DNA of 64,000 bases from a virus. A program made the position numbers and the translations under genes. The stretch is from the IMG/VR virus record IMGVR_UViG_3300034418_008897, positions 1 through 64,000 of that record, one strand, 5' to 3'. The first letter of the stretch is position 1; each line of letters begins with the position of its first letter. A model generated the notes under the pieces. It searched no databases, was not told the DNA's origin, and saw nothing but the letters and a program-made list of their open reading frames with translations. This document shows, piece after piece, positions 1 to 60,142 of this stretch.

Positions 1-3000
1 GATTTCTTTTACAATTTTTAATTCTTGCTCTAAATCTTTTACTTCTTCTAATTCACCTTCTTCTTTCTTTTCTTCGATCTCTAATTCTAAATCTTCTTCA
101 CTTTTCCCAGACAAATTAATATCAAATTCAATTTCTACGGGGTCTTCTGTATTTAAATTTAATATTAAATTTTCTTCGTTATTTAATAAACCTTTTTCTT
201 CTTTTATTTTTAATATTTCGTCGTTAATCTCAGCTTTATCAGAAATAGTTATATCTTCAATGTCAGATAATTTATTCATTAAAATATCGAACCCTCTAGG
301 AGTAACTTCTTGATTAGCTAGTTGGATGAATTCAGATTTTATTGTAGCTACATATTTTTTGTAACCCTCTTCATTATTAGCTTCATTTTCTATATCAGCT
401 GTATTATCAACTAGTTCATTAAAATATTTATCTGTAAAAATCACTTTATCCTGATCAACAGAACTTATAGCTTTATCTATACTGTTTTTCCAAGATTCTA
501 GGTTAGTAGTATCATCTCCTCTTTGAGTAGCTCTATTAATAAATGTTTCTTTATCTATAGATATTATTTTATCAAAGTCTTTTGCATTTTCTCTTAAAAA
601 TAACATATCAGAAACCACAAGAAATTTATTTGTTTGCTTTGCTTCAATTAAAGCCTCACCCCAATATTTCCTCATAAGGTCGCTAAATTTTTCTTCATTT
701 TTAGGATCCTGTTTACGCCATTCATTTAAACCCTCACTGTTTTGTTTATCTATAGGCAGCTCTAATTCTTCTGCGATTTTTGGTTTAAAGTCTGTATCAA
801 AGTCTAAAACAGTGTCAGGATTATTTTCTTTAAAAGTAGTTTTACCTAAGCCTGGGTGCCCCCAAATAATTTTATCTTGGGGTTCTAAATAGTCAGTATA
901 GGTAATAGGTTCAACGTCTTCTGCTTTTTTAACAATATAAGTAAATTCGTCTTCTTTCAATAATTTATTAGAAGCTATACCGTCTTCGTAAGCATTACCA
1001 TAGTCATCAAATACTATAGCTTTATTTACACCTTTATTATTATCAAAAATAATCTTTCTATCTCCATCCCATTTTTTAACTATATAAGACACTCCTTTGA
1101 TTTTTATTTCTGTGCCTTCAGAAATCTCAGCTAAATATTTTTCTAGTAATTCTCTAGCTTTTTCTTTTTTAGCCAAGTTTTCCTCAATTCTTCTTTTTTC
1201 TGCCTCTTCTTTTTCTTTTTCTTCTTCTGCTCTTAATTTAGAATCTTTTTTAACAGCTTCTGCGTTTATAGGTTGTATGGTAGAATACATAGCTATTTTT
1301 AAATCTTTTGCTTCACGAGCTAAACTTTCATCCAATGATTTATCTACTATGAAAATATCATCTGAAATTACAGAATTTAATGTTCTACTAGTTTCATTAT
1401 GTATATAAGAAAAATATCTTGCTCTTCCTATAGTTGTAGCTAATTTAGAAGCAGCTGCTTTTTCTTTAATAGAAGCGTTAGCCCCATGAGATGCAAAAGA
1501 ATCTCCTATATCCTCTTTAGTAACAATAGAAATAACGTAATCAAATTCTTGTCCTTGAACAGAATTATGAGTAGTTAATTTAAAATTATCTCTGTAAGAC
1601 TTTATTAACGTACCTAATTTAGTATCTTCAGCTGGCACATCTTGCAAAGAAGGTAAAATTATACCAATTTTAAATGGCTCTGAATCTCCTTCTTTTATAG
1701 CATCTTCTATATTACGTTGTATATTATTTATGAATTCTTCATCATTAAATAAGTCTTGTCTAGTTTTACCTTTTTCTGAAAATTTAATACCACCTAATAA
1801 TTTTTCATCTGTGCCTTGAACATAACCGTAGCTGGAAGTAATATTATCAACGTTATTATCTGCTGTAAATAATACTTTTAAATTTTCCTTATTTTCTTTT
1901 AAAATTTTATTTCGTACAAATATATTTATGGATTCTATACGAGTCCTAAAATTATAAATTAATTTAGGAGTTCTAAAAAAGCCTATAGCAGCAGATAAAT
2001 TTTTAGGTTCTCCGTCTTTACTGTAGTATCCATTTTGAGATGGATCTCCTGTAAAAATAATTCTTAAAGCAGGTTCATTTGTTTTTTCCCTTGCTTTATT
2101 TATATCTTCTACTTTTTGCAGTAATTTAGCTAAGTCAGTTTTATTTTTATAATCTACTTTTTTAGCATCTTCACGAGTATATTCTAAGTAAGTAGCTTCA
2201 TCAAAAACAATAGCATTTATATCTTTTGTGTTTTCTATTTTAGATAAAAATCCTAGTAGTTTTTTAGGTGTCCATTTACCATTAACAACCTCTTCCGAGT
2301 GAAATGAATGCTCACTAGTAGAAACACCAAATTTTTGCATTGTTTTACTTAATATATCAACTTGTTCAGGTTGATTAGAAGCCAATAAAACTTTACCTTC
2401 ATTTATTATTTGAGCTATTTTTAAAGCAGTTCCTAATACATAAGAAGATTTACCTGAACCTTGCACACCGTAAACTACAGCTGCATGCCTATTTCCTTCT
2501 TCATTATTGTACGCGTAATCTATAAATTTAGAGCCTGCATCAGAAGTTAACTGAGCTACTAGCTCCATAATAACAGTATCTTGTTCTCCAGTAGAAGTTT
2601 CTGGTCCCTCAGATTCTTGTAATATTTTATTATATTCGCTATAAAATAATTCTCTGTTTAGTTCTAAAGTTATAAATGCATTTTTTATTTTTTCTTTTTT
2701 TGCTGTGTCTGCTAAAGGAGAATTATTTTCTGTTAAAGCTGATACATATATAGTGTAAGCATCTATTATTTTACTTTTTTCTTCTGATGATAAATTAAAT
2801 AATAAAGATTTTACAGCTGTAACTTTTTCAAAGTTTGCTATTATATCTTCATCAAGTTTAAAACGTTCATCTTGAGTTCTTTCAGCCGTCCAATTTGTGT
2901 AATCTTTTATTATTTCGTTACTACCTAAATCAGTTGCATCTAATAAACTTAATAATTCATCCTCTTCTTTTTTCATAGCAGAGATCATACTATCTTTATG

Positions 3001-6000
3001 TATAGTAGCGCCGCCCTTTAAATTTTCTTTACCTTCTTTTGCTAATTCTTCTAAGGATTCTAATCTGTTTTTTAAATCTTTTAAAAAAACATAGCTTTCA
3101 GATAAAGCATTTACTTTTCCAGATAAAATAGAAAATTCTTTTTCTTCTTCTTTAGTTTTATTTTCTTTGTTAAATAATTCTGCGTATTTATTATTATCTT
3201 GTATTAAAGAACCAAAAGTAGATGCATTTAAATTAGGATATAACTTTTTTAAATTGTCATAGGCTAAAACTCCTTTAGTAGTATTGGTTTTAATTTTTTC
3301 TTCTCCTGTGTCTAAGTCAATGTAAGAAAAAGAATTAGATTGTAATAAAAAATCAACTTGTTCTAAACGGGCCTTTACTTGAAATAAAGCAGATTGGACT
3401 TCTTCTAGAGAGTTAAAAGTGTTTATATTAGGGTTTTTTATTCTTTCGTCATTTTTTTGTTTTTCTAAAGCTTCAATTATATCTTTTAAATTATTAGAAC
3501 TTTTTAATTTATTTTTATCTCCGCTAAACCCTTTAATTAAATGCTCTACACTTTTAGCTCCCTTTAAGTAATCTAATTCCTCTAAGTCAACTAAATTTTC
3601 TTTATTTTTAGTTAGAGCATGTAATTCCTTTAAAAGTAAATAATCTTCACTTTCAAAATTTAAATATTCATTATATTTAGCTAAACCTTTTATTCTATTT
3701 AAAGTAATTTTATCATATAAATTTATTTTTATTTGTTCAACTAAAGCTCTAAAATCTACTAAAGTATTAGACTCTGAATTTAATAAATCCTCTAATTTTT
3801 CTTCATAACTTATAGGTATACCATATTCATCAATTAATTCAGGTAATAATTGGTCAGCCGTCAACCCTACTAAGTTCAATAACGGTGTTTTTAATGGGTC
3901 ATTAAACTCAACAGCTTCTAGTTCTTTGATAGTTTCTGCTGACTTTATATCAAAATCAATTTTGTTTTTATAAAAATTTTGAGCTAGAAATAAGTATCTA
4001 TTTTTTGCATCTTCACTTGTTAATGAATTATACTCCGGTGATTTTGTAATGTTTTCTACACTATAAAACTCTTCTGCTTTTTTAGTTAACTTTTCTTTAA
4101 AATTTTTTATACTTTTTTCTGGGGATTCATAATTTTCGTATAAATCTGTGATTTTGTCCTTAGCTTTTTGAGATAAATAAACTATTTTACCTTCCTTTAA
4201 TAAGTGAGTAATAGTATCTATATTAGATAAATCATTTTTTAGTTCACTTATTAGCTTGTCGTTTTCTTTTATTACATTCGCTATTTCTTCAAAATTTTCT
4301 TCAGAAGCTTCAATTTCCTCTTCAGAATTTTGTATTAAATTATACAATATATTCTTACCAAATTTTTCTTGCATGTCTTCAGATAGATTATCATAATCTA
4401 AAGAAGTACCTTTTGATAAAGCTTCAAAGAAATATTTAGACGCAGACTTACCAGTTTTTATATCGTTAAGCTCTTTTTCTATTTCTACTAATCTTTCTAC
4501 ACTAGCAGTATCCATATTATAAGCAGTAGCAAAATTATCTATTTTTTGTTTCTGCTCATCTTCTGTTAATTTAGGATCATAAATAGTTCTAGAACCATTA
4601 GGATTACTACTAGGTTCAGCTCCTGCTGTAGCCATAATATCTAAGTACTCTCTACTTAAATCTTTAATATCTTTTACTAAAGAGTTGTCAGTTAGAGCCT
4701 TTACTATTTCTGGTTTATTTTTAGCAATTTGTTTAAATATATCTACACCGCCTAAAGCATTTATAACAGAATTAACGTACTCGTATTGTTGCAATAAAAT
4801 ATCTTTAGTGGCATCATTCATACTTTGCAACTTATTATCTTCAGTTACAGGTATAAAAGTTTGAGTTTCAGGGTCATAAACTGTACTAAGTTTAGTATCT
4901 GCTAATTTACCTTCTTTATGTAATTTATTTATAGCATCTTTATAAGCCTCTCCTTGACCAGACATAGCATAATCAAGCATACTTTCTTTAACTTCATTTT
5001 GGTGAGGTTCGCCTAATATTTTTCTAAATCCCGGGGCTTTAGTTATTGCACCACCAATAAAACCACCCACAGCACTACTAGTTATACCTTCTTTAAAATA
5101 CTCCCAATAACCAGGATCGTAAGGACTTAAAAAATGTCCTTCTCTACCACCTTCTGCTTCCCAAGGAAACATATGTTTTAAAGCTTGGAATCCTTGTTTT
5201 ACTGCTTCTTCTGATAAAAATTCAGCTGTTTCTTCTGCTGCTTCTTTAGTACCAGATTCTAAAACACCTAAAATACCAGGGGCAGTTTTAGCCCAGTTTT
5301 CTGAAATGCTACTTAATTTAGAAGTATTTTTAGCTATATTACCCATAGTTTTACTAAAAATATTTTTAGTAACTTTACCGGCTGTTTCATCTAATATAGC
5401 TTTTTTAGCTGATTCCTCACTAGCTTCATCTGCCATTCTAAGACCGCTGATAATAGTTTTATGTAAACCGTCTATTTCCGGCTTCATAACTTTCATTACT
5501 GATTTAGCAGTAGCCCAAGATTCATAAGCATTTTGTAACGGGTTCATAAACTTATTAACTAACAACATAGAACCAAAAACACCTGTATATAAAGTAGCAG
5601 CTTCTCTAGCACTAAAACCAGCCGCCAAAGCAGATTGGTAAGTGTCTTTAGCACCGTACAAACTCATACCAACTATAGATCCTGTTGCAGCAGCTTTATT
5701 ATATAAAGACCCTGTTTGTAATGCTCTTAAAGCAGCTTTAGAACCTAACCCGGCCCCAGCTCTTAAACCATAACTAGTCAAAGCTACAGCCGAAGAAGCC
5801 ATAGCACGACCAGACAGTAATTGTAAAATTACATCTGAAACCAACCCAGCAGCAGCATCCCAACTGCCTAAAGCGCTACCTTCTCTTGTTTCAGCAGCAG
5901 GTTTAATAGTAGCTAAGTTTGTTCTAAGTAATACAGGAGCCCAGTCTTCTGCTGCTTCATTACCTCTAATAAAACTATCTGCTGCAGCCCCTAAATTTAT

Positions 6001-6870
6001 AACTGTACCTTCTATACCAGAAGCAAAATTTAAAAGAGATCTAGGAACAAAATCGAAAGCACCTGCTTCTCTAGAAGTTCTAGGGTTATAAATATCCCAA
6101 ATAGATGCTGTTTCTAAATGAGCGCTATCTAAATATTCTCCTTCTAGTATGGCTTGATATCCAGGTTTCATTTTAGATCCTTCTTGAGTAGACCCTTCTC
6201 TGTAAGCCCAACCCATTACTTTTTTCCCATTTACTAAAAAAGAAGGATTGTCTATAGCATAATAAGCACCGCTAGCATCATCATCTGAAAAATAAGCAAC
6301 TGCTTCGTTTATTAAGTTTGATATTTTAGTAAAAGGGTTATCTGTAGGTAAGTTAGGGTGAGCAAATCTATAAGAGTTCATTACTTCTTCTTTACTAGGC
6401 ATTTTATGTGCTTTACCATCAGAAGTAAAAAATATATCAGAATCTGCATGTGCTTTAAATATATCTACAGTAGGAGCAGTTATTTCTCCAAATAAAACTC
6501 TAGCTCCGTCTAAACTAGCATCCGTTGCTCTTACATCAGTCATTACTTTTCTTTCTTTATGACCTGTTAAGTAACCCATACCAGGCATAGCAAAGTATTC
6601 AGATGTAGCAAAAACATTAAATTTACCCTCCCTATAATTTTGATAATCTTTAGCTAATACGTTGTAATCAGCTTCTATTTTATTTTTATATTCATCGCCA
6701 AACTCATTTTTATAAGCTTCAACAATCTGTGGGTCTTGTAAATAATCTTCTTTAGGTTTTAAATCAAATTCTTGTTCTGGGTTGTTATTTAAAATATCAG
6801 CGTAATTTCCCGACATTTGATTCAAAGTTCTTTCGTAAAACCAATCTTTACTTTTAATATTTTCTGGCAT
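1..6870 (-). CDS. Giant (>2290 aa, runs off the window) virion cargo/polyvalent protein with an Ala/Gly hydrophobic region, an SF1 helicase and a P-loop kinase domain; may be the virion RNA polymerase-associated polyprotein
   Basis: ATG at 6870 (MPENIKSKDWFYERT...). The frame was spot-translated at several points and is open at position 1; the track lists no minus-strand ORF here, consistent with no stop. Helicase motifs: VYGVQGSGKSS (~2440-2480), IVFDEATY (~2190-2215), IIFTGDPSQ (~2035-2065), THNSVQGQEFDYV (~1535-1575), ATTIGRAR (~1415-1440). Kinase: IIWGHPGLGKTT (~835-870). No RNAP catalytic motif seen inside the window. Confidence 0.85.
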   Translation of the reverse strand, partial: MPENIKSKDWFYERTLNQMSGNYADILNNNPEQEFDLKPKEDYLQDPQIVEAYKNEFGDEYKNKIEADYNVLAKDYQNYREGKFNVFATSEYFAMPGMGYLTGHKERKVMTDVRATDASLDGARVLFGEITAPTVDIFKAHADSDIFFTSDGKAHKMPSKEEVMNSYRFAHPNLPTDNPFTKISNLINEAVAYFSDDDASGAYYAIDNPSFLVNGKKVMGWAYREGSTQEGSKMKPGYQAILEGEYLDSAHLETASIWDIYNPRTSREAGAFDFVPRSLLNFASGIEGTVINLGAAADSFIRGNEAAEDWAPVLLRTNLATIKPAAETREGSALGSWDAAAGLVSDVILQLLSGRAMASSAVALTSYGLRAGAGLGSKAALRALQTGSLYNKAAATGSIVGMSLYGAKDTYQSALAAGFSAREAATLYTGVFGSMLLVNKFMNPLQNAYESWATAKSVMKVMKPEIDGLHKTIISGLRMADEASEESAKKAILDETAGKVTKNIFSKTMGNIAKNTSKLSSISENWAKTAPGILGVLESGTKEAAEETAEFLSEEAVKQGFQALKHMFPWEAEGGREGHFLSPYDPGYWEYFKEGITSSAVGGFIGGAITKAPGFRKILGEPHQNEVKESMLDYAMSGQGEAYKDAINKLHKEGKLADTKLSTVYDPETQTFIPVTEDNKLQSMNDATKDILLQQYEYVNSVINALGGVDIFKQIAKNKPEIVKALTDNSLVKDIKDLSREYLDIMATAGAEPSSNPNGSRTIYDPKLTEDEQKQKIDNFATAYNMDTASVERLVEIEKELNDIKTGKSASKYFFEALSKGTSLDYDNLSEDMQEKFGKNILYNLIQNSEEEIEASEENFEEIANVIKENDKLISELKNDLSNIDTITHLLKEGKIVYLSQKAKDKITDLYENYESPEKSIKNFKEKLTKKAEEFYSVENITKSPEYNSLTSEDAKNRYLFLAQNFYKNKIDFDIKSAETIKELEAVEFNDPLKTPLLNLVGLTADQLLPELIDEYGIPISYEEKLEDLLNSESNTLVDFRALVEQIKINLYDKITLNRIKGLAKYNEYLNFESEDYLLLKELHALTKNKENLVDLEELDYLKGAKSVEHLIKGFSGDKNKLKSSNNLKDIIEALEKQKNDERIKNPNINTFNSLEEVQSALFQVKARLEQVDFLLQSNSFSYIDLDTGEEKIKTNTTKGVLAYDNLKKLYPNLNASTFGSLIQDNNKYAELFNKENKTKEEEKEFSILSGKVNALSESYVFLKDLKNRLESLEELAKEGKENLKGGATIHKDSMISAMKKEEDELLSLLDATDLGSNEIIKDYTNWTAERTQDERFKLDEDIIANFEKVTAVKSLLFNLSSEEKSKIIDAYTIYVSALTENNSPLADTAKKEKIKNAFITLELNRELFYSEYNKILQESEGPETSTGEQDTVIMELVAQLTSDAGSKFIDYAYNNEEGNRHAAVVYGVQGSGKSSYVLGTALKIAQIINEGKVLLASNQPEQVDILSKTMQKFGVSTSEHSFHSEEVVNGKWTPKKLLGFLSKIENTKDINAIVFDEATYLEYTREDAKKVDYKNKTDLAKLLQKVEDINKAREKTNEPALRIIFTGDPSQNGYYSKDGEPKNLSAAIGFFRTPKLIYNFRTRIESINIFVRNKILKENKENLKVLFTADNNVDNITSSYGYVQGTDEKLLGGIKFSEKGKTRQDLFNDEEFINNIQRNIEDAIKEGDSEPFKIGIILPSLQDVPAEDTKLGTLIKSYRDNFKLTTHNSVQGQEFDYVISIVTKEDIGDSFASHGANASIKEKAAASKLATTIGRARYFSYIHNETSRTLNSVISDDIFIVDKSLDESLAREAKDLKIAMYSTIQPINAEAVKKDSKLRAEEEKEKEEAEKRRIEENLAKKEKARELLEKYLAEISEGTEIKIKGVSYIVKKWDGDRKIIFDNNKGVNKAIVFDDYGNAYEDGIASNKLLKEDEFTYIVKKAEDVEPITYTDYLEPQDKIIWGHPGLGKTTFKENNPDTVLDFDTDFKPKIAEELELPIDKQNSEGLNEWRKQDPKNEEKFSDLMRKYWGEALIEAKQTNKFLVVSDMLFLRENAKDFDKIISIDKETFINRATQRGDDTTNLESWKNSIDKAISSVDQDKVIFTDKYFNELVDNTADIENEANNEEGYKKYVATIKSEFIQLANQEVTPRGFDILMNKLSDIEDITISDKAEINDEILKIKEEKGLLNNEENLILNLNTEDPVEIEFDINLSGKSEEDLELEIEEKKEEGELEEVKDLEQELKIVKEI

Positions 6871-6895: not shown

Positions 6896-8986
6896 TTATT
6901 CTAGATTAGATAAATTTACACCTATAGGGCTTATTGAAGTTTTTCCTGGATTTTCTAATTGTTGTTGTAAACTCATTTGTTGTTTTGCAACATAAGAATC
7001 CATCATTTTTGAATTAGATCTTGCAGGTATAACTATTTTATAGGCAAAAACTTCAGGTTCATCTGGGTTGTTGACCCAACCTACAATCAAAGGATCATAG
7101 TCTAAAGTTTTATCTGGTTGTACTATTTTACCTAAAAAAAGATCTACCATATCTGACATCGGCTTTACTAAATTTTCTTTTGTTACAGGAACATCATCAT
7201 CAAAAAATTTAGATGTGGAATAAGCAGTAGCTATATAAACTCTTTTTATTGTTACATTTTCTGGTAAAAAAGATTTTAATATTTTTTGATATTCTTGCTC
7301 ATAAGCTTCTGTTCCTTTTTCTGCGGTTATATTTTTAATTTTATTTGCATACTTTAATTTTTGTTCTTTTGACATAGTTAGATCAAAAACACTACCGTCA
7401 GCATTAATAGGTAAATAAGCCCCTTTTAAAGTATTTTTGTCTATAATACTACCACTTAATAAATCAACATGACTATCCCAAGGATCACTACCTGATACTT
7501 GACTAGCCCTTATATTAGTTGAACCTATAGTAGCTTTTGATAAATCAGCAATTTTATTAAATTCAGTTTCATTTTTTAAATAAACCTTATTTCTTTTTTG
7601 GTTATTAGCATCTGCTTGTATATAATCTTTTGCTTCATTAGCATCTGTATTATAGTATGCTGCTTGTATATATTTATTTCCTTTTAAAACATTTAACCCA
7701 TCTATAGTCTGCAATTCAAACTCATTAGCATCAGACCAATCCTTACCAGGACCTTCTAACTTAACTGCTCCAGTTAATTCTGCTATAGCCCCCGCTTTAA
7801 CTACTTCAGTATCATAAATTTTAGTGTAATCACCAGGCATAGTTACTTGGTAACGTTTTAAATATTCGTATTGTAAAATATTAGTTATTTGTTTTTCTTT
7901 TTCTTCTTCCGTTTTAGCATAAACTTTTTCATACTCACCTGTAGGATTTCCATATTCATCTAGTATAGGATCTCCTTTTTTGTATATTAATTCTTTATTT
8001 CCGTTTTCATCTAAAATAGGCTTTCCGTTTTCATCTTTTTTAATTTCCATTAAAGGCATAAAAGCTAATTTAGCATCAAAATATTTTTTAACTTTAGGGT
8101 CCATATTTTGCAATAAGCTTTGAAAAGCAAAATCTATATTTGTTTCATTAGTTCTTTTTCCTCTACTTTGTGTAAAATTCTCTAATATTTGACCAGTAGC
8201 ATCTGCTTTACCCCCTTGTGTAATTTTTGAAATATTATCAGTAAATCCTACATCGTTAAATGCTTTATCTATCCATTCATTTTTAATATATCTATAACTA
8301 ACACCATCTCTAAGGTTACTAATTATATCTCTATCACCTCTAAAATTAATATCTTCTGCCCTTAAATTAGCAACATCTTTATAAGTTAAAAGCTTAATTA
8401 ACTTCCATTGATCTCCTCCTTTTCTAAGTTCTTCAGGTGTTAAGTAAGAATAAGTTGATTTTTTATTACCTTCTTCATCCTCAATTAGAACACTAGCTAA
8501 AAATCTACCTTGATCATCGTAGTAATCAGAATTAGCTCCGTCTTGTTCATTTAAAGCTTTTATATTTTCTTTGTAAGCTTCTTCTTGAGCAAGATCGACC
8601 CTTTGTTGGGTATTTAAATAATATTCGTATTTACTTCTCAACTCAAAGTATTTATCTGTCTTTTCAAAACCATCTACATTATTTAGACCCCATTGAATTT
8701 CATCAAATAGTTGTTTAGCTTTTGTTTGAGTATCAAAATTATCTATAGGCAACCCCACAGCTTCAGGGTATTTCATTTCAGGTAATTTACTGCTTTTTTC
8801 TTTTTTATCACTAGCTGTTTTAGCAGTACTAGCTTTATATTTTTGTAATAAAGCAGAAGGATCATAAGGAGTATAAGGTATAGGCTGTATTTGATAAGTA
8901 GCGTAAAACGGTATATCTCCCCCTGTTTGAAATTTATTTATTTTTCTTCTCTTGATTTCTCTGTTTGAACGGAATAATAACGACAT
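6896..8986 (-). CDS. Putative ejected cargo protein (696 aa), tagged N-terminus
   Basis: Long ORF directly before the giant cargo gene, as in crAss-like cargo clusters; starts MSLLFRS...KINKFQTGG. Confidence 0.6.
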   Translation of the reverse strand: MSLLFRSNREIKRRKINKFQTGGDIPFYATYQIQPIPYTPYDPSALLQKYKASTAKTASDKKEKSSKLPEMKYPEAVGLPIDNFDTQTKAKQLFDEIQWGLNNVDGFEKTDKYFELRSKYEYYLNTQQRVDLAQEEAYKENIKALNEQDGANSDYYDDQGRFLASVLIEDEEGNKKSTYSYLTPEELRKGGDQWKLIKLLTYKDVANLRAEDINFRGDRDIISNLRDGVSYRYIKNEWIDKAFNDVGFTDNISKITQGGKADATGQILENFTQSRGKRTNETNIDFAFQSLLQNMDPKVKKYFDAKLAFMPLMEIKKDENGKPILDENGNKELIYKKGDPILDEYGNPTGEYEKVYAKTEEEKEKQITNILQYEYLKRYQVTMPGDYTKIYDTEVVKAGAIAELTGAVKLEGPGKDWSDANEFELQTIDGLNVLKGNKYIQAAYYNTDANEAKDYIQADANNQKRNKVYLKNETEFNKIADLSKATIGSTNIRASQVSGSDPWDSHVDLLSGSIIDKNTLKGAYLPINADGSVFDLTMSKEQKLKYANKIKNITAEKGTEAYEQEYQKILKSFLPENVTIKRVYIATAYSTSKFFDDDVPVTKENLVKPMSDMVDLFLGKIVQPDKTLDYDPLIVGWVNNPDEPEVFAYKIVIPARSNSKMMDSYVAKQQMSLQQQLENPGKTSISPIGVNLSNLE

Positions 8987-9040
8987 ATTCTTATATAAAA
9001 GTTTAAAAGATTATATTAAAAGTGGTAATATTTTTAAAGT

Positions 9041-9068
9041 AAAAACCCCAGACCGAAGTCTAGGGTTT
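9041..9068 (-). terminator. Intrinsic terminator with cUUCGg tetraloop
   Basis: Minus strand AAACCCTAGAC-TTCG-GTCTGGGGTTTTT, just after the stop at 9097. Confidence 0.8.
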
Positions 9069-53490: not shown

Positions 53491-53491
53491 T

Positions 53492-55228
53492 TTAATTTTG
53501 TTTTTGATAGATAATTTTACCGTTTTTTATTTGTTTTATTATATTACCTTTCGAGTCAAAAAAATCTATTACTCTAGAATCTGCCCCTAAAGTATTATCT
53601 AAAACTTCTTGCTCTCTAGATACAGGGTTTGTTCTTCTTGAAATATAGGGCTCAAATCCTTCTTCTATAGTAGTCTTTATAAATCTATCTTTATAATTAG
53701 AGTTAGTTTCTATGCTTTTTTTCATTAAGTCTCTTGCTGATTTTTCCCTTAATCTAGTTGCTTCTTTTAATTGATTAAACTCATCTAAATTTCTAGGCAT
53801 ACCAAGGCGAACAGAGTTAAAACTTTGAGGTTTTTCAACAGAAAGAAGAGTTGGTTGTTTTGCTTTTTTAATTGGGTATTTTAAAGCCATTACAGCAACC
53901 GGGTCTATCATTACATCAGCGATGGTATTAGTAACAGGATTATTTATTCCTTTGCTTTGTAAATAAGAACTTGGAGTTAAATGTTTGTTATTTGTAAACG
54001 CAGACATCATCATGTTTTGAGGAATGCTAAACATATCTAATAAAGTAGTATTATTAGATAATTCTATTTTTTCTGTACCAGGTTTATTATTTCTTAAATT
54101 ATCTTCGTAAATTTTATTTTTAACATCTTCTTCTTGTGCAGGTATAGCATTTTTATTTAACTCTGCTGCACGTTTACCATCTGGATCTTTAATTGGAACA
54201 TATCCGTTTGTTTTTCCAGGAATATTAATCATCCAACCAAATGCACCTTTCTGGTACCTTACACCTGGTCTACTTGGGTAGGTGTAGGTAACTGGACTTG
54301 TGCCATTTTGGTATTTTTTAATGTATAAAATTCCGCCTTTGCGAGCCATCATTATTTTATTTTTATTATTTGTATTAGCAATAGTATTAAAAATTTCTAA
54401 TAAATCATTGTCATTAAATCTCTGCTCTAATTGTTCAAGTTGATTTCTCCCATTTATACCTTTCATTTTAGCTTTTATTTTTTCTAAAATTTCCGGGGTC
54501 ATTGTTTCTGTATAAGGATCGAAAATGTTATTATCTTTTGCAAATTGCAATATTGCATCTTTTCTAGCACTTATTTCTTCTAATCTACCTAAATAATTTA
54601 ATTCCTTCAAGTTATTAATAATATGTTGCTTGCCTTGGTCGGTTTTTAAAAAATCTTCATAAGGCATCGACATAAAGAAATTATTTTCTTGTTCATATTT
54701 TAATTTAGCGTTTTGTGCTAATTTTGTGTCTTTAAAAAGCTCATATGCTTTATAAGGATTATTGTAATCAAATATAATTGCTTTTGCTTCAGGCATTTTT
54801 TCTGGCGTTGCAATTTGCCACTTTTGGTAATCATATTTTGGGAATGTATGGCCAGTTTCATTACTATTAGACATATGTCTATATTCATGAGTTTTAACAT
54901 AAGGATTATAATCTGGCATATTTGTAAACAAAGTAACATTTCTTTTACCTTCATAATAATTAGGGCTAGGATTAGCTTCCCCTAATACATTTGATAAAAT
55001 AGGAGGTTCATTTGTTTCAAAATCATTTAAATTTTTTAACCTTTCAGTTATTATTTCATCTGCTTTCAGTTGTAATTCTTCTTTATTTAAATTTGGAAAA
55101 TCTTTACTTAAAGAATTCAGTAATAATTCTTTGTGTTTAGGTGAATTAAACCAACCTTCTAAATATTCTTTTGAGTCGCTTGGGCTAACTAAAGTATTAC
55201 CTTTTTGATATTTTTTTAATAATGCCAT
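53492..55228 (-). CDS. Tagged two-module protein: zincin-like HExxH metallopeptidase + second module
   Basis: Starts MALLKKYQKG; THEYRH and a later EEISAR; internal MARKGGILYIKKYQNG junction. Confidence 0.7.
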   Translation of the reverse strand: MALLKKYQKGNTLVSPSDSKEYLEGWFNSPKHKELLLNSLSKDFPNLNKEELQLKADEIITERLKNLNDFETNEPPILSNVLGEANPSPNYYEGKRNVTLFTNMPDYNPYVKTHEYRHMSNSNETGHTFPKYDYQKWQIATPEKMPEAKAIIFDYNNPYKAYELFKDTKLAQNAKLKYEQENNFFMSMPYEDFLKTDQGKQHIINNLKELNYLGRLEEISARKDAILQFAKDNNIFDPYTETMTPEILEKIKAKMKGINGRNQLEQLEQRFNDNDLLEIFNTIANTNNKNKIMMARKGGILYIKKYQNGTSPVTYTYPSRPGVRYQKGAFGWMINIPGKTNGYVPIKDPDGKRAAELNKNAIPAQEEDVKNKIYEDNLRNNKPGTEKIELSNNTTLLDMFSIPQNMMMSAFTNNKHLTPSSYLQSKGINNPVTNTIADVMIDPVAVMALKYPIKKAKQPTLLSVEKPQSFNSVRLGMPRNLDEFNQLKEATRLREKSARDLMKKSIETNSNYKDRFIKTTIEEGFEPYISRRTNPVSREQEVLDNTLGADSRVIDFFDSKGNIIKQIKNGKIIYQKQN

Positions 55229-55252
55229 ATTATTATATATATTATAAATATT

Positions 55253-55438
55253 TTATTTTTTCAAGTTATGTATAGAATCTATTATATAATTTAAACAAGT
55301 ATCATTATATTTAACGTAATATTTAGCAAATTTTGTTAAGTTATTTATATTTTCCGGGCTAGCATCTGCCATATCCCCTTTTAAAACTTCAGGTAAATCA
55401 AAATTCATATTACTTATTTCCTTTGTTATAATTTTCAA
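55253..55438 (-). CDS. Hypothetical small protein
   Basis: Fills the gap between two payload genes; start uncertain. Confidence 0.4.
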   Translation of the reverse strand: MKIITKEISNMNFDLPEVLKGDMADASPENINNLTKFAKYYVKYNDTCLNYIIDSIHNLKK

Positions 55439-57626
55439 GGTCTTTTTTTACTCTGTCCATATGTCTTTTTGCCATATAGCCTAGAGGAATACTTGTTGCG
55501 CCAAGCAAACCAGCAGCCCCCTTTATAAACTTATTATTTGAAGCTTTATCCCAGTCTCTAAGCACATCCATTTGCTTTGTATTAGCTGCATTTTTAGTAC
55601 CCAACATAGTTAATTTAGCTGTTGTTTTTTGATTATCTCCTAAAGTACCTGGAGAAAATTCTTCAATAGTTTCAATAAGCTTATTGCCTTTATGATCAAA
55701 AAATTCACCTGAATCGTTGTAATATATTCTATTTTTCAAATCAAAAGGTTTACCACCTGTTAAAGAAGAAACTTCAAAATCTCTGACTTTATTAGGTAAG
55801 AATTTCATCTTTTTTAATGGTTGTAAATCCCATGTATCTGTAAAATCAATAAATTTTCTACCTTGCTCATCTACACCTTTTGTAATCCAACCATTACCAT
55901 GCACACCACCAAAATTTAATTCTTTTTCAATTTCCATAGTACCAAATGATTTTTTAGGATTATCTATTATTTTTTGCAGTTTATTCTTCTCTAATTTAAA
56001 ATCATTCAGCGCTAATGTATTATCTGCGTTTTTAGAGAAAGTATTAAACTCAGGTTCTAATCCGTTGTATAATCTCCAAGAATCAAATCTATTTTTAGTA
56101 GCGTAAGTTTTTGGCTTAAACTTCAAAGCTTTAGGTGTTATTACTTCTAATGGGGCTCCAGCTACTGTAAATAAATCATAACCTATAGGAGTTATAGATC
56201 TATTAACAATTTTACCTAACAAATTATTTTTAGCTTGCTTTGTATAGGTTTTCATTATTTCTTTTTGTCTCTCAGGACTAAATCTAAAACCAAAACCTTC
56301 ATATTTATTTGTAAATTGATTCCATTTAGCATCATTATATTTTCTTTTTAAACCTTTTAAAAAATCACCTTTGGGGGCAACAATATCTTCTCCAAGATTA
56401 ATTAAATCTTGTGGAGCTACATGAGAAGCTACTCCATGAATAAAATCTACCTTATTTACATTTATATTTTTAAGTTCTGGATTTAATTTTACTAAAGATT
56501 CATATACAACATTTAATTCAACTGGCTCTACAAGTCCTGCTTGAGATCTTCTAGCAAATTCATTTAATCTATTAACATCAACTCCTTCTGGTAAAACATA
56601 GTCATGCCCAAATTGAGGATTTACAAGTTTTGATTTTTTAATAGAAGGTTCAAATTTTTTAGTAACAAAATTATAATAGGAATCAGAATTCTTTTTAATA
56701 GCATCCACTGCTCTATAATGTACAGGATCTATACCTACTTGAGTCTTAGCAGATTGTAAATTATATTTTGGAAATTTATATTCAAAATTAGGTGAGCCTG
56801 GTAGTTGTTTAGTAAAATTATTAGCTAATAAACCCCTAGCATCATCTGCATATTTACCTAATACTTTACCGCCTAATCTTACCACATCAGGAGCCTTGTA
56901 TAATAATCCTGCAGGAGCTGTAACTATACCCGGCAAAGAAGCTGCATTTAAAGTATTTGGTGTGTATCTACCTGATAAAGCATCTCCTAATGTAGTAGGT
57001 TGATCGGCATTAGTAGCATATTTCATAACAAATGAACCTGGTATATCTGCAAAAGAAAGAGCATCAGCAGCATTTCCTAATTTTTGCATTACACCTTTAG
57101 GGTAGTAATATTTCGCTTCTTCAGCTGGAGTTAATCCTTTTATATCAGGTGTAAAAGTCGGTCCTTGCTTTCCTGTTAAATTTAAGAAGCTGTTAGCTGC
57201 GGATACTGCTCCACCTTTGGTTCTTGCCCACAATGAAGGCTCTATATATTTAGCATATTTAGAGTTAGGCATTGCTTTAGAAAGAATCTTAGCGTTAACT
57301 AAGTTATTCATTATAGACTCTCTATCTGTAAGATCTATATTATTTTCTTTAGCATACTGCTCTATAACATAATTATTTCTATCATAATCATATCGATTGT
57401 GTATCCTTTGTTCAGCTTGCTCAGGAAAATTTCTTTCGTTTACATTAAATAAATTTTGTAGTCCTTTATTACCTTTGTTTAAGTAATTATCTTTTTCATT
57501 TATAAGGTAATCACGATAAGGATTTTTAGAATTATAATCATTATAATACCTAGTTAAAGGAGTTATAGATGTTTCCTTTAACGTCTTTCCTTTTTGGTAT
57601 TTTCCTATTTTATTATATAACATCAT
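55410..57626 (-). CDS. Tagged multidomain protein (738 aa), unknown C-terminal domain
   Basis: Starts MMLYNKIGKYQKG; central Ala/Gly hydrophobic stretch; globular C-terminal domain (DTWDLQP, GGKPF); hydrophobic tail. Confidence 0.7.
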   Translation of the reverse strand: MMLYNKIGKYQKGKTLKETSITPLTRYYNDYNSKNPYRDYLINEKDNYLNKGNKGLQNLFNVNERNFPEQAEQRIHNRYDYDRNNYVIEQYAKENNIDLTDRESIMNNLVNAKILSKAMPNSKYAKYIEPSLWARTKGGAVSAANSFLNLTGKQGPTFTPDIKGLTPAEEAKYYYPKGVMQKLGNAADALSFADIPGSFVMKYATNADQPTTLGDALSGRYTPNTLNAASLPGIVTAPAGLLYKAPDVVRLGGKVLGKYADDARGLLANNFTKQLPGSPNFEYKFPKYNLQSAKTQVGIDPVHYRAVDAIKKNSDSYYNFVTKKFEPSIKKSKLVNPQFGHDYVLPEGVDVNRLNEFARRSQAGLVEPVELNVVYESLVKLNPELKNINVNKVDFIHGVASHVAPQDLINLGEDIVAPKGDFLKGLKRKYNDAKWNQFTNKYEGFGFRFSPERQKEIMKTYTKQAKNNLLGKIVNRSITPIGYDLFTVAGAPLEVITPKALKFKPKTYATKNRFDSWRLYNGLEPEFNTFSKNADNTLALNDFKLEKNKLQKIIDNPKKSFGTMEIEKELNFGGVHGNGWITKGVDEQGRKFIDFTDTWDLQPLKKMKFLPNKVRDFEVSSLTGGKPFDLKNRIYYNDSGEFFDHKGNKLIETIEEFSPGTLGDNQKTTAKLTMLGTKNAANTKQMDVLRDWDKASNNKFIKGAAGLLGATSIPLGYMAKRHMDRVKKDLENYNKGNK

Positions 57627-57628
57627 TT

Positions 57629-60142
57629 TTAATTTTGTTTTTTATTCCAAGGGTTATAAAGTAAAGATCCTAAACCTATTGGAGCTAATGCCTTATATAT
57701 ATTAGGGTTAGTCATGTCAAACATTCCATTATTACCTATTAAAGATTTAAGTCTATTGTTACCTTTAAAGAATATTACATCATCCCCTATATCTTCTCCT
57801 GGTTTTAACTTTAAAGAATTATCATAATTATCTACAACATTTTTAGCTGTAAAAGAATCGAACCCTTGTTTTTTATATCTTTCTGCTAATTTATTAGTAG
57901 TAAGAGGCGAAGTTTCACGAGCATTAGGATCTAAAAAATCATTTTTTTGGATTGTCATATCTTTTTTATAAGGGGCAGATTCAGGTAAAGATTTTAAATA
58001 TTTTTCTGCTGCTTGTTTTGATCTAAATGTATTTCCTTCTGGAGACAGCATATTACCAAAAGCATCATATTGCATACCTTCTTTATTATTAGAACCTACG
58101 ACATAACCACTTTTCTTACCTATCCAACTATTTCCTTTATAATCTACAGATTTATTTTTACCTAAATTTGCTCCTAATTCTAGCACCTTACCTTTATCCC
58201 CAGCATAAGTTTTAGCTATGTTTTTGTTAGTAGTCGTAAAAATTAGGTCAGGGTATAAATTTCCACTAGTTAATCTTTCTGCTTTACTTAAATCAAATTC
58301 TGTTAAATCTCTAGCTGGAGTTCCGTGGTATAGTACATTTTTATACATATTTTCAGCTTGTTTTTCCCCCCCTGCAAATCTTGTTAAATTTTTAGATTTC
58401 ATTTGGACAAACTGTTCTGGACTACCGTTGAATTTAGTACCGTCACTATATTTCATCCATGTTCCATCAGCTTTAGCTTGTTGCTCAATAGCATTATACT
58501 CTTGCATTAAAGCTTTATTTTCTGGTATTTCTTTATTCCATTTACCCCAATCTATTTCAGATTTAAAATCTTGAGTAGGTAATAAATCAGATAAGTATTT
58601 ATTTGTATTGATTACTTTAGATTTATCTGCTTTTGCTACTACTTCATCTATACTGTTTTTCCATTCTGTTATATCGTATTTAGCACCGCGTTTTTCTATT
58701 CTTTTTACAAACTCATCTTTTGGTATATTTATAATTTTATCAAAAGAGTCTAAATTATTCCTTAATAAGTTTGTATTTGATGTAAACAATACTTGCCCTT
58801 TACTTTTAGCTTCTTTTTTAACTTCATCAAATAAAGACTGCATCATTTGATTATATTCTTTATTCCATACTTCATTACCTCCGTTCTTTACTTGATATGT
58901 AGAAATATTATACTTTTTTGCAATATCATTTACTGAATTATTTATAACATCTGCATAGTCATCATCTAAAGATAAAAACCTATTGTCACCGGCTTGCTTT
59001 AAATAACTTTTACCTATAGTTGGATGACCAAATATAATTTCATCTGTGTTATTTATTACCGGTTCAAAAACACTTCCTGTAGCTTGCCCTACATCTTGAG
59101 CTTTTGCTCCTACAACTGCTTTATTATAAGCTTTTCTAACAATTGGATTATATTTTGCACTAGCTGGGTTTAATTGAGGCACTAACACAGATCTGAAATC
59201 GTTAGCTACACTAGTTGGAGTGGAACTAATCCTAGGAATTATTTTATTACCTATAATATTGTTTAATTTAGAAGAGTTGCTTAACCTCATAGTTTCCAAA
59301 GCAGCGCTTTCTCCCATGTTCATTAACCTACCAGAACGACCAATTAATTTAGTACCTGGTATAAGATCTAAAGCCGTAAATGCCGTTGAAGTTAAAGCAT
59401 TTTGCCAATCCTCCATTTTACCGCTTTTTATTGCTTTTCTTATGTCCTCTTCAGTGTAAAGAGCATCATTACCAGCATTAATTAAAGCAGTAGTTGGGTG
59501 TAAATATGAAGCTGCGTTTAAACCTTTTAAAACAGTGTTATTATCAAAAACGGGATCTGAAAATCCAGGCGATCTTTCCATAGCACTATAATTCATAGGC
59601 ATATTGAAAGGCCCAGGTTTTAAAAAATAAGCTGTTGCTACTAGAGGGTTTCTAATTATGTTTCCAGCTTTATCTGCCCAAGTATATTCAGGAGCCGATT
59701 GTATTGTCCCAGGATCTTTCGGATATACCATTGCTGGTATATAACTATCTATTTTGTTTGTATCTAATAGGATTTTAGCTTTATCTTCTTCAGACAACCA
59801 ATTAGCATTTTTAATTTTATCTACTACTATAGATCTTTCAGCAGCTCTTCTTTTTGAACCCTCTTCAACTATATTAGCAGCTGTATTAGCTATAAGTAAA
59901 TTTTTTGGTTGAGTTGATTCAGCAACTTCTACTCTAGGTAAAGAATTAAAATTAGCTGTATTAAAATTAGAATAAGGTATAGCGTTCTTATTTAATTCTG
60001 CTGTTCTTTGTTCTACATTTCCAGCAGTTAATGGTAAATATTTACCATTAATTTCTTTAAACCATTTATCTCCTTCTTTCTTATAATTGTGGTTATTATA
60101 TCTATAATACCCGCCGTCTTGATATTTTTTTAATAATGCCAT
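57629..60142 (-). CDS. Tagged polyvalent protein: P-loop kinase + ADP-ribosyltransferase-like (ART-PolyVal type) domain
   Basis: Starts MALLKKYQDGG; IIFGHPTIGKS; VLYHGT...FD...IFTT.NK.IAKTYA...GFDS...KSLIGNNGMFD..NPNIY. Confidence 0.72.
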   Translation of the reverse strand: MALLKKYQDGGYYRYNNHNYKKEGDKWFKEINGKYLPLTAGNVEQRTAELNKNAIPYSNFNTANFNSLPRVEVAESTQPKNLLIANTAANIVEEGSKRRAAERSIVVDKIKNANWLSEEDKAKILLDTNKIDSYIPAMVYPKDPGTIQSAPEYTWADKAGNIIRNPLVATAYFLKPGPFNMPMNYSAMERSPGFSDPVFDNNTVLKGLNAASYLHPTTALINAGNDALYTEEDIRKAIKSGKMEDWQNALTSTAFTALDLIPGTKLIGRSGRLMNMGESAALETMRLSNSSKLNNIIGNKIIPRISSTPTSVANDFRSVLVPQLNPASAKYNPIVRKAYNKAVVGAKAQDVGQATGSVFEPVINNTDEIIFGHPTIGKSYLKQAGDNRFLSLDDDYADVINNSVNDIAKKYNISTYQVKNGGNEVWNKEYNQMMQSLFDEVKKEAKSKGQVLFTSNTNLLRNNLDSFDKIINIPKDEFVKRIEKRGAKYDITEWKNSIDEVVAKADKSKVINTNKYLSDLLPTQDFKSEIDWGKWNKEIPENKALMQEYNAIEQQAKADGTWMKYSDGTKFNGSPEQFVQMKSKNLTRFAGGEKQAENMYKNVLYHGTPARDLTEFDLSKAERLTSGNLYPDLIFTTTNKNIAKTYAGDKGKVLELGANLGKNKSVDYKGNSWIGKKSGYVVGSNNKEGMQYDAFGNMLSPEGNTFRSKQAAEKYLKSLPESAPYKKDMTIQKNDFLDPNARETSPLTTNKLAERYKKQGFDSFTAKNVVDNYDNSLKLKPGEDIGDDVIFFKGNNRLKSLIGNNGMFDMTNPNIYKALAPIGLGSLLYNPWNKKQN

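What the first reader, a model, noticed from the sequence alone, without database searches (positions are those of the whole stretch)
415..59045. The same P-loop kinase domain occurs in the giant cargo ORF and in the ART-containing payload protein, 58 kb apart
Seen: giant ORF (~415-875) KIIWGHPGLGKTT...LDFDTDF...EAKQTNKFLVVSDMLFLRENAKDFDKIISIDKETFINRATQRG...SWKNSIDKAISSVDQDKVIFTDKYFNEL versus 837 aa ORF (~58575-59045) EIIFGHPTIGKSY...LSLDDDY...EAKSKGQVLFTSNTNLLRNNLDSFDKIINIPKDEFVKRIEKRG...EWKNSIDEVVAKADKSKVINTNKYLSDL. This is direct evidence of domain exchange between the canonical cargo cluster and the tagged array, and supports both being one functional class. The substrate is unknown; the layout resembles NMP/shikimate-type kinases.
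Basis: seen in the sequence. Interest (0 to 1): 0.7.

Follow-up and report, generated by a model that had tools for sequence, protein, structure and literature searches.

The report
Shared kinase module in crAss-phage cargo proteins
Two very different proteins of this crAss-like phage carry old, separately inherited copies of one undescribed kinase-type enzyme module that crAss-like phages shuffle among their giant, probably injected proteins, often placing it directly in front of an ADP-ribosylating enzyme.

Summary
Giant ORF aa 1999-2153 (window 412-876, minus strand) and 837-aa ORF aa 366-520 (58583-59047, minus strand) align at 34% identity over 193 aa (E 2e-20). With the Walker A stretch removed the E-value is still 1e-18.

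The domain folds as a P-loop kinase (pLDDT 87.5; every structural neighbour is a kinase of this class, best Z 8.7). It has GHPxxGK[ST], DxD[YF] and an RxxxR lid, all intact in both copies. No Pfam, NCBIfam or PDB-sequence family covers it.

About 260 sequence clusters exist. They sit at any position in proteins of up to about 7000 aa, in contigs with a crAss-type portal.

New here: the ART-PolyVal domain lies directly downstream of the kinase in about a third of the family members that have room for it.

The two window copies are deep paralogues. An AU test rejects their sisterhood (p 0.005), so this is not a recent exchange within the genome. The 35 other contigs checked each have one copy.

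Independent support for one cargo class: the giant ORF plus the tagged array have 0.03% Cys against 0.88% in the other ORFs. The mass-spectrometry-verified cargo of PhiCrAss001 shows the same depletion.

The substrate is unknown.

The parts
1..6870 (-). Giant ORF. 2290 aa are visible; the C-terminus is lost at the contig end. It contains no cysteine.
412..876 (-). Kinase-domain copy 1 (aa 1999-2153 of the giant ORF): GHPGLGKT, FDTDF, VSD, R..QRG, WK. All family invariants are present.
1381..2529 (-). SF1-helicase-like core of the giant ORF (aa ~1448-1830), about 170 aa upstream of the kinase. Only sub-threshold Pfam hits, plus recognisable Walker A, DEAT and QGxEFD motifs in the sequence.
   Evidence: AAA_12 E 2e-4, SLFN-g3_helicase E 3e-4, both below their cut-offs; sequence
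57629..60142 (-). 837-aa ORF with no cysteine. Order of parts: N-terminal tag, variable region, kinase, linker, ART.
58583..59047 (-). Kinase-domain copy 2 (aa 366-520): GHPTIGKS, LDDDY, TSN, R..KRG, WK. AF2 model pLDDT 87.5.
57719..58336 (-). ART-PolyVal domain (aa 603-808) with an insert of about 70 aa. The His motif (LYHGT) and the FTTT/AKTY motifs are conserved. The third catalytic position is not resolved.
   Evidence: The AF2 model of this part is poor.
60107..60142 (-). N-terminal MALLKKYQDGG-type tag, shared with eight other ORFs of the window. The giant ORF lacks it.

Best explanation
Shown: both stretches are intact copies of one undescribed P-loop kinase domain family of about 155-170 aa. 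Its motifs are Walker A GHPxxGK[ST], DxD[YF] after strand 2, S-[ND] after strand 3, an RxxxR lid, WK, and K...T..Y. The family is a self-contained, shuffled module of the giant or multi-domain proteins of phages with a crAss-type portal. The two copies in this genome are old paralogues that arrived or were kept separately. One sits about 170 aa after an SF1-helicase-like core in a giant ORF. The other sits in front of an ART-PolyVal domain in a tagged 837-aa protein.

Inferred, fairly strongly: both host proteins are virion cargo ejected into the cell. They are cysteine-free like the mass-spectrometry-verified cargo of PhiCrAss001, and they lie in the late/structural gene block.

Inferred, weakly: the domain is an active ATP-dependent phosphotransferase. 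The first Asp of DxD would hold Mg2+, the second would activate a substrate hydroxyl, and the lid arginines would hold the ATP phosphates. The substrate is probably a ribose or sugar hydroxyl of a nucleotide-like molecule or a nucleic-acid end. The kinase would act in the first minutes of infection, and in kinase-ART proteins it would act in concert with the adjacent ADP-ribosyltransferase.
For: Homology: E 2e-20, and E 1e-18 without Walker A.

Family size and placement: 262 clusters at E<=1e-3, 230 of them at E<=1e-10, in proteins of 97-6953 aa at any relative position.

Conservation: the catalytic-type residues are invariant or nearly so in 146 sequences and are present in both window copies.

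Fold: AF2 pLDDT 87.5. All top Foldseek and VIA matches are P-loop kinases: dephospho-CoA kinase Z 8.7, adenylate kinase 8.2, shikimate kinase 8.0, Clostridium thermocellum Pnk 7.3, T4 Pnk 5.8.

Profile comparison: the 146-sequence profile against T4 Pnk gives E 3.9e-4 with all four motifs aligned. E. coli CoaE gives 0.015. Adk and AroK align only at the P-loop.

Module behaviour: nothing outside the domain is shared with any other family member or locus. The phages closest by capsid protein (42% identity) carry a kinase only 28-29% identical to either window copy.

crAss link: a phrog_6547 portal is present in 24 of 35 kinase-bearing contigs, including 12 of 12 that are at least 90% complete. 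The only GenBank hits are three Suoliviridae.

ART link: 45 of 152 family proteins carry the ART, 35 of them directly downstream. ART-bearing members occur in every major kinase clade.

Cargo: Cys is 0.029% in the giant and tagged ORFs against 0.884% in the rest of the window (p 1e-18). In PhiCrAss001, gp45/46/47/49/50 have 0.096% against 0.97% in neighbouring proteins (p 2e-14). The cargo status of those PhiCrAss001 proteins comes from PMC10172136.
Against: No activity, substrate or packaging has been shown.

Structural Z-scores of 6-9 do not single out any kinase family.

Pfam gives only sub-threshold hits (AAA_18, AAA_24, nSTAND3, AAA_33).

Pairwise distances of kinase and ART in 30 adjacent pairs are barely correlated (Spearman r 0.12, 217 of 2000 permutations reach it). 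The pair is therefore not an anciently co-inherited unit, and functional coupling remains an inference from order and spacing.

More than half of the members with room for an ART lack one, including the whole subclade of the giant-ORF copy (0 of 9).

The giant ORF lacks the N-terminal tag of the array.

Cysteine depletion could have other causes.
Confidence: 0.55

Rival explanations
1. Polynucleotide 5'-hydroxyl kinase (T4 Pnk-like). It would phosphorylate 5'-OH ends of RNA or DNA in the freshly infected cell. This could repair host-cut tRNA or RNA, or create the 5'-phosphate that the neighbouring ART then ADP-ribosylates, giving a 5'-phospho-ADP-ribose cap.
For: Of the four reference kinases tested, T4 Pnk gives the best profile match (E 3.9e-4, 103 columns, Walker A / DDY / SD / KRxxxRG all aligned). 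C. thermocellum Pnk scores Z 7.3. The domain sits next to an SF1-helicase-like core in the giant ORF and directly after a 'DNA helicase' giant ORF in cr124_1. Other domains found in family proteins are AlkB-like, ThrRS-like and SpoT-like HD. ART-fold enzymes (Tpt1, PARPs) are known to ADP-ribosylate 5'-phosphate ends (PMC6182162, PMC9458441).
Against: hhalign probability is only 35%. Pfam AAA_33 is hit by 1 of 17 members, at E 0.06. The spacing differs: DxDY here against DDY in T4 Pnk. The Arg three residues after T4's catalytic Asp is Lys, Ala or Asn here. T4 Pnk reaches only Z 5.8 in structure. No 3'-phosphatase domain was seen, and no PF09414 RNA ligase in the 80 kb contig. Only one ligase family was searched, and the contig is 65% complete.
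Confidence: 0.2
2. Small-molecule kinase of the dephospho-CoA-kinase or NadR type. It would phosphorylate a ribose hydroxyl of NAD+, ADP-ribose, nicotinamide riboside or a nucleotide defence signal. That could supply or alter the ART's donor, lock its product, or destroy a host signal.
For: The best structural match is dephospho-CoA kinase (8dv0: Z 8.7, 158 aligned residues, rmsd 4.0). NadR scores Z 6.6. E. coli CoaE aligns over 115 columns including DxD and the lid (E 0.015). The direct fusion to an NAD+-using enzyme fits. ESM Atlas neighbours are small viral kinases and CoaE-type proteins; these are leads only.
Against: The Z-scores of the different kinase families are tied within about 1. 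No Pfam CoaE hit was found. Many family members have no ART at all. A virion-delivered enzyme present in a few copies is an odd way to change a metabolite pool.
Confidence: 0.15
3. Zeta-toxin-like kinase that phosphorylates UDP-GlcNAc to weaken the cell wall during entry. This is the role proposed for the P-loop kinase domains already described in polyvalent proteins.
For: Iyer et al. 2017 report zeta-toxin-like kinases in polyvalent and MuF-fused phage proteins (PMC5512222). The window's tagged array also contains a lytic transglycosylase (SLT, E 6e-17).
Against: No member of 17 scanned hits Pfam Zeta_toxin at E<=1. No zeta toxin appears among the 50 best structural matches shown in each list. 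The domain's usual partners are cytoplasm-acting (ART, helicase-like, AlkB-like, HD).
Confidence: 0.05
4. Not a kinase. It would be an ATP-binding or ATPase module, or a purely structural one, used for packing, unfolding or ejecting the giant proteins.
For: It is embedded in proteins that must be stored and threaded through the tail. Some kinase-fold proteins, such as Fap7/hCINAP (among the Foldseek hits), act as ATPases on RNPs.
Against: The invariant residues are the phosphotransfer set (P-loop Lys and Ser/Thr, DxD, two lid Arg). Stand-alone forms of 151-155 aa exist. There is no ATP inside a virion.
Confidence: 0.08
5. Recent duplication or exchange of the domain between the two genes inside this genome.
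For: Both copies are in one genome, which is unusual: 35 other contigs have one copy each.
Against: The copies are 34% identical. They lie in separate clades with support 99 and 100. The AU test rejects sisterhood (delta lnL 120, p 0.005). Each has closer relatives elsewhere: 67% identity to P0043 and 60% to P0015.
Confidence: 0.03

Closest known systems
T4 polynucleotide kinase (PseT), 5'-kinase domain, and PNK-like P-loop kinases
   Same: GxPxxGK[ST] P-loop, an acidic motif followed by Tyr after strand 2, S-D/N after strand 3, and a K-R-x-x-x-R-G lid. It is the best of four reference kinases in profile comparison (E 3.9e-4). It is a phage enzyme used against host defence.
   Different: DxDY here against DDY in T4. 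The Arg after the catalytic Asp is missing. There is no phosphatase domain. The structural Z is only 5.8. Pfam AAA_33 is not reached. The domain is embedded in giant proteins rather than being a free early enzyme.
Dephospho-CoA kinase (CoaE) and shikimate kinase, which are P-loop kinases with a DxD motif
   Same: These are the best structural matches (Z 8.7 and 8.0). They share the five-strand core, the DxD after strand 2 and a lid with arginines.
   Different: No sequence-family match. Sequence identity is 10-13%. The P-loop carries His-Pro. The biological setting is entirely different.
Polyvalent proteins of phages and conjugative elements (Iyer et al. 2017, PMC5512222), including their ART and zeta-toxin-like kinase domains
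   Same: Large multi-domain proteins encoded beside virion genes, with enzymatic domains shuffled in many orders and predicted to be packaged and injected. The ART of the 837-aa protein is the Pfam family named after them (PF18760).
   Different: The kinase here is not the zeta-toxin-like family, nor the Ser/Thr-type kinase described there. I found no mention of a P-loop-kinase-then-ART pairing or of crAss-like phages in the main text of that paper or of PMC9503650. Their supplementary architecture lists were not checked.
PhiCrAss001 cargo proteins gp45, gp46, gp47, gp49, gp50 (Bayfield et al. 2023, PMC10172136)
   Same: Large proteins encoded after the tail genes. They are almost free of cysteine (0.096% against 0.97%), as are the window's giant ORF and tagged array.
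   Different: There is no detectable sequence similarity to them. Packaging of the window's proteins has not been shown.
T4 Alt, a head-packaged ADP-ribosyltransferase
   Same: It is the precedent for an ART carried in the capsid and injected with the DNA.
   Different: According to PMC5512222, Alt belongs to the R-S-E clade, whereas the ARTs of polyvalent proteins belong to an H-Y-type clade. Alt has no fused kinase.

Membership tests
P-loop kinase class (KG division of P-loop NTPases) | Walker A GxxxxGK[ST] between strand 1 and helix 1 | tested here: met
   G-H-P-x-x-G-K-[ST] is invariant in 146 sequences and in both window copies. It is placed after strand 1 in the model.
P-loop kinase class (KG division of P-loop NTPases) | Lid helix with two arginines, R-x(2-3)-R (criterion taken from my own knowledge of Leipe, Koonin and Aravind 2003) | tested here: met
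   R481 (99%) and R485 (97%) lie on the helix after strand 4.
P-loop kinase class (KG division of P-loop NTPases) | Small five-strand parallel core of the kinase type, with no Walker B hhhhDE | tested here: met
   DSSP finds five strands. All top Foldseek and VIA matches are P-loop kinases, and 499 of 992 chains score Z>=5. S-[ND] stands at the end of strand 3 in place of DE.
DxD-motif P-loop kinases (shikimate, gluconate and dephospho-CoA kinase and relatives) | D-x-D directly after strand 2 | tested here: met
   D393 is 100% conserved. Position 395 is Asp in 79% and Glu in 14%. It aligns to the DAD of E. coli CoaE.
Polynucleotide kinase (T4 Pnk type, Pfam AAA_33) | Sequence-family membership | tested here: not met
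   AAA_33 is hit by 1 of 17 members at E 0.06, with the cut-off at 27 bits. hhalign against T4 Pnk gives E 3.9e-4 at probability 35%, which is suggestive only.
Polynucleotide kinase (T4 Pnk type, Pfam AAA_33) | Catalytic Asp followed three residues later by the Arg that binds the substrate phosphate (D35 and R38 of T4 Pnk; their roles are from my own knowledge) | tested here: inconclusive
   The Asp is present. The aligned position of R38 is Lys in 55%, Ala in 25% and Asn in 8%. The register is uncertain by one residue.
Zeta toxin (PF06414) | Sequence-family membership | tested here: not met
   No hit at E<=1 in 17 members.
Zeta toxin (PF06414) | Closest fold | tested here: inconclusive
   It is not among the 50 rows listed. 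Absence from these lists excludes nothing.
Dephospho-CoA kinase (CoaE, PF01121) | Sequence-family membership and closest fold | tested here: inconclusive
   It is the top structural match (8dv0: Z 8.7, rmsd 4.0, 158 aligned residues), but tied within about 1 Z with adenylate and shikimate kinases. There is no Pfam hit. hhalign gives E 0.015.
ART-PolyVal (PF18760), C-terminal part of the 837-aa protein | Score above Pfam's gathering cut-off | tested here: met
   37.9 bits against 31.2, E 3.8e-9, aa 603-808.
ART-PolyVal (PF18760), C-terminal part of the 837-aa protein | Complete catalytic triad (H, Y, acidic or polar third residue) | tested here: inconclusive
   The His (YHG) and the aromatic motif are conserved. 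The last strand reads differently from the family consensus, and the AF2 model of this part has pLDDT below 50.
Polyvalent proteins (Iyer et al. 2017) | Two or more unrelated effector-type domains in one polypeptide, encoded with virion genes | tested here: met
   Kinase plus ART in the 837-aa ORF, 8 kb from the portal. Helicase-like core plus kinase in the giant ORF.
Polyvalent proteins (Iyer et al. 2017) | Packaged in the virion and delivered to the host | not testable with these tools
   There is only indirect support: cysteine depletion like that of proven PhiCrAss001 cargo.

The most novel reading that the evidence does not exclude
The kinase-then-ART pair is a two-step end-modifying machine injected with the genome. 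The kinase puts a phosphate on a 5'-OH (or ribose OH) of a nucleic acid or nucleotide. The adjacent H-Y-type ART then transfers ADP-ribose onto that phosphate. The result would be a phospho-ADP-ribose cap that protects phage nucleic-acid ends or inactivates host RNAs or signals. ART-less copies, such as the one beside the helicase-like core in the giant ORF, would do only the first step.
Probability: 0.12. Interest if true: 0.85.

Novelty: new variant of a known kind. Interest (0 to 1): 0.55.

Why it matters
crAss-like phages are among the most abundant gut and environmental viruses, yet their giant virion proteins are almost entirely unannotated. This work does three things.
- It defines a compact, well-conserved enzyme family in those proteins that has no entry in Pfam or NCBIfam.
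- It shows that the family's preferred neighbour is an ADP-ribosyltransferase, which gives a concrete biochemical experiment: kinase plus ART on defined substrates.
- It offers a simple compositional marker, near-absence of cysteine, calibrated on the proven cargo of PhiCrAss001, for predicting which crassvirus proteins are ejected cargo.

If the kinase and the ART act in sequence, this would be a new type of injected modification system.

Tried and rejected
- **Family libraries.** Pfam, NCBIfam and PDB-sequence searches with single domains, with 17 members and with a profile returned nothing above threshold. A weak hit to 9m8o 'Gp15' (E 0.039) covers about 24 residues and was judged to be chance.
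- **ESM Atlas.** It did not hold the window's domain. A stand-alone homologue gave only leads: viral small kinases and CoaE-type proteins.
- **Similarity outside the kinase domain.** BLAST of the rest of both proteins found nothing, against family members, fetched loci or GenBank phages.
- **Relatives of the window.** A near-identical DNA search of the phage collection found no relative.
- **Two-domain model.** The kinase-ART AF2 model (mean pLDDT 59.9) left the ART part unusable, so the ART's third catalytic residue and the relative orientation of the two active sites remain unknown. Both structure-prediction jobs are now used.
- **Co-inheritance of kinase and ART.** A Mantel-type test gave r 0.12, not significant, so I do not claim the pair moves as one unit.
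- **The genome search with PF18760.** It did not even find the ART known to be in this contig, and the controls did not match either, so that call is uninformative.
- **Other families in the contig.** RNA ligase PF09414 and Macro PF01661 were not found, but the contig is only 65% complete.
- **Capsid similarity.** A capsid-protein match to the window was found in only 6 of 35 kinase-bearing contigs. The crAss link therefore rests on the portal family.

Full report
**Setting.** The window is the first 64 kb of an 80.5 kb IMG/VR virus contig estimated 65% complete. All large ORFs lie on the minus strand. Capsid, portal and terminase are recognised. The portal is distantly related to Crassvirales portals. 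The giant ORF (1..6870, minus strand) runs off the contig start, so its C-terminus is missing.

**Observation.** Giant ORF aa 1999-2153 corresponds to window 412-876. The 837-aa ORF aa 366-520 corresponds to 58583-59047. BLASTP aligns them over 193 residues at 34% identity, E 2e-20. With the N-terminal ~20 residues including Walker A removed from both, the remaining 123 residues still align at E 1e-18. The similarity is therefore not a P-loop artefact. The contig holds exactly these two copies.

**What the domain is.**
- A profile search of 1.84 billion cluster representatives found 262 proteins at E<=1e-3, of which 230 are at E<=1e-10. This is a compact family, sharply separated from other P-loop proteins.
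- In an alignment of 146 domains the following are invariant or nearly so: G-H-P-x-x-G-K-[ST]; D393-x-[DE]395-[YF]; K450, L452, S455, L460; F-D-K 467-469; F478, R481, R485; W494-K495; K509, T513, Y516 (P0002 numbering). Both window copies keep all of them.
- AlphaFold2 gives a confident model: pLDDT 87.5, five strands, and a lid helix carrying the two arginines.
- Foldseek and two VIA-align runs return only P-loop kinases: dephospho-CoA kinase 8dv0 Z 8.7 (158 aligned residues, rmsd 4.0), adenylate kinases 8.2, shikimate kinase 8.0, thymidylate kinases 7.6, C. thermocellum Pnk 7.3, T4 Pnk 5.8. No family stands out.
- Pfam, NCBIfam and PDB-sequence searches give nothing above threshold. Only phrog_4182, of unknown function, matches.
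- I fetched four reference kinases from annotated records and compared them with the 146-sequence profile. T4 Pnk scored best (E 3.9e-4, 103 columns, all four motifs in register). E. coli CoaE followed (E 0.015). Adk and AroK aligned only at the P-loop. This is a lead, not a family assignment.
- The class is settled: a P-loop kinase with a DxD motif and an RxxxR lid. The sub-family and the substrate are not.

**Where it occurs.**
- The domain sits at any relative position in proteins of 97 to 6953 aa, median 1193.
- In 56 IMG/VR loci it is mostly inside ORFs of 1300 to more than 4400 aa.
- A crAss-type portal (phrog_6547, the family that also matches the window's portal) is present in 24 of 35 kinase-bearing contigs, including all 12 that are at least 90% complete. 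It matched none of 14 control genomes.
- In 50,697 GenBank phage records three different queries find only three Suoliviridae crassviruses. There the domain lies near the N-terminus of a ~2000-aa protein that directly follows another giant ORF, annotated 'DNA helicase' in cr124_1. Several relatives are TAG-recoded.
- Outside the domain, neither window protein shares detectable similarity with any other family member, any fetched locus or any GenBank phage.
- The contigs closest to the window by capsid protein (42% identity) carry a kinase only 28-29% identical to either window copy.
- The domain thus behaves as a self-contained module whose history is uncoupled from that of the phages.

**Relation of the two copies.**
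- In a maximum-likelihood tree the giant-ORF copy lies in a 22-row clade (support 99; nearest relative 67% identical).
- The ART-protein copy lies in a separate 58-row clade (support 100). Its starred 5-row subclade otherwise consists of domains from proteins of 2832-3910 aa.
- Forcing the two window copies together costs 120 log-likelihood units (AU p 0.005).
- They are old paralogues, not the product of an exchange within this genome.
- Having two copies is unusual. The 35 other contigs searched each have one; one of them has its single copy split across the record ends.

**A recurrent partner.**
- The stretch just downstream of the kinase is conserved in many members. Pfam identifies it as ART-PolyVal in 7 of 10 short members tested, two of them above the cut-off. 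This is the same family found in the 837-aa protein (37.9 bits against 31.2).
- With an iterated HMM, 45 of 152 family proteins carry this ART. In 35 it is directly downstream, after a conserved linker of about 40 aa. In 4 it is directly upstream. In the remaining 6 it is further downstream.
- Of the 107 proteins without it, 48 are too short after the kinase to hold one.
- ART-linked members occur in every major kinase clade. The subclade of the giant-ORF copy has none (0 of 9).
- In IMG/VR loci about one in five kinase ORFs also holds the ART.
- Kinase and ART distances are hardly correlated among 30 adjacent pairs (r 0.12, not significant). The pairing is therefore not a single anciently co-inherited unit.
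- The strict order and spacing still argue for a functional reason.
- Other domains seen in family proteins are PP2C, AlkB-like dioxygenase, SpoT-like HD and ThrRS-like. This is a typical 'polyvalent protein' repertoire (PMC5512222).
- I found no description of a P-loop-kinase-then-ART pairing in the main text of that paper or of PMC9503650.

**Are both proteins cargo?**
- Homology does not link the giant ORF to known crassvirus cargo, and it lacks the N-terminal tag of the array. Composition does link them.
- The giant ORF has no cysteine in 2290 aa. At the background rate about 20 would be expected (P 1.6e-9).
- Together with the nine tagged ORFs there are 2 Cys in 6913 aa (0.029%). The other 29 large ORFs have 0.884% (Fisher p 1e-18).
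- As a calibration I computed the same for PhiCrAss001. The five proteins shown by mass spectrometry to be virion cargo (gp45, 46, 47, 49, 50; PMC10172136) have 0.096% Cys. The 26 neighbouring proteins have 0.97% (p 2e-14).
- Kinase-family proteins from other phages are equally poor in cysteine: 0.13% overall, and 0.088% in IMG/VR kinase ORFs against 0.37% in other long ORFs.
- This supports, but does not prove, that both kinase-bearing proteins of the window belong to the ejected cargo.

**Mechanism.**
- Shown: a conserved, intact phosphotransfer-type active site in a kinase fold.
- Inferred: an ATP-dependent kinase acting on a hydroxyl group in the newly infected cell. By analogy with DxD kinases (my own knowledge of shikimate and dephospho-CoA kinases), the first Asp would serve Mg2+ and the second would act as the general base.
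- The many conserved Lys and Arg residues suit an anionic, nucleotide-like substrate.
- Specific candidates in order of my preference: 5'-OH nucleic-acid ends, possibly feeding the ART, since Tpt1 and PARPs ADP-ribosylate 5'-phosphates (PMC6182162, PMC9458441); then NAD/ADP-ribose-type small molecules; then cell-wall precursors as for zeta toxins.
- None of these is tested.

**Verdict.** The kinase reading is right at the level of fold class. The 'domain exchange within this genome' reading is not supported, while module shuffling across crAss-like phages is. The 'one functional class' reading gains independent compositional support. The family and its ART pairing appear undescribed, and the substrate is open.

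Noticed in passing
window 1-6870, 6896-10323, 46475-47125, 53492-63952 (minus strand); L065 (PhiCrAss001 NC_049977 11000-60999): Near-absence of cysteine marks the giant ORF and all nine N-tagged ORFs (2 Cys in 6913 aa, against 0.88% elsewhere in the window). The mass-spectrometry-verified cargo proteins of PhiCrAss001 show the same (0.096% against 0.97%). This may be a general compositional marker of crassvirus ejected proteins.
   Followed up: partly
proteins P0005-P0154 (kinase-family representatives from other phages): 82 of the 144 that start with Met have a Cys at position 3-5 (M-x(1-3)-C), although cysteine makes up only 0.13% of these proteins. None carries the window's MxLLKKYQxGG tag. 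This may be an alternative N-terminal signal or processing site in other crAss-like lineages.
   Followed up: no
alignment A3; proteins P0005, P0007, P0062, P0115, P0133 and others: Short, highly conserved junction peptides flank the kinase in many relatives: LFESNPELAN.VYEALGF upstream (24 proteins) and TPQQKQQAQQLYSQYLDTIFP between kinase and ART (33 proteins). They may be linkers, cleavage sites or recombination joints.
   Followed up: no
window 1381-2529 (minus strand): The giant ORF holds an SF1-helicase-like core (Walker A GVQGSGKS, DEAT, GDPSQ, QGQEFDYV, GRAR motifs). It reaches only sub-threshold Pfam scores (AAA_12, SLFN-g3_helicase, Viral_helicase1).
   Followed up: partly
G017-G019, G024, G025, G027 (IMG/VR contigs behind L041-L043, L051, L054, L056): Kinase and portal genes contain 3-20 in-frame TAG codons, so these crAss-like relatives appear to be TAG-recoded. 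In G025 the capsid-protein match is split into three pieces with TGA and TAA between them.
   Followed up: no
P0161, P0171, P0036, P0039/P0040: Other family proteins combine the kinase with ThrRS-like (PF00587 + PF03129), SpoT-like HD (PF13328 + PF01966), PP2C and AlkB-like 2OG-Fe(II) oxygenase domains.
   Followed up: no
window 61969-62874 (minus strand): This tagged 301-aa ORF carries a lytic transglycosylase domain (SLT, E 6e-17).
   Followed up: no
G000 (own contig): the genome search with family PF18760 missed the ART domain that hmmscan finds above cut-off in the 837-aa ORF. The loose first pass of that tool can miss this family.
   Followed up: yes
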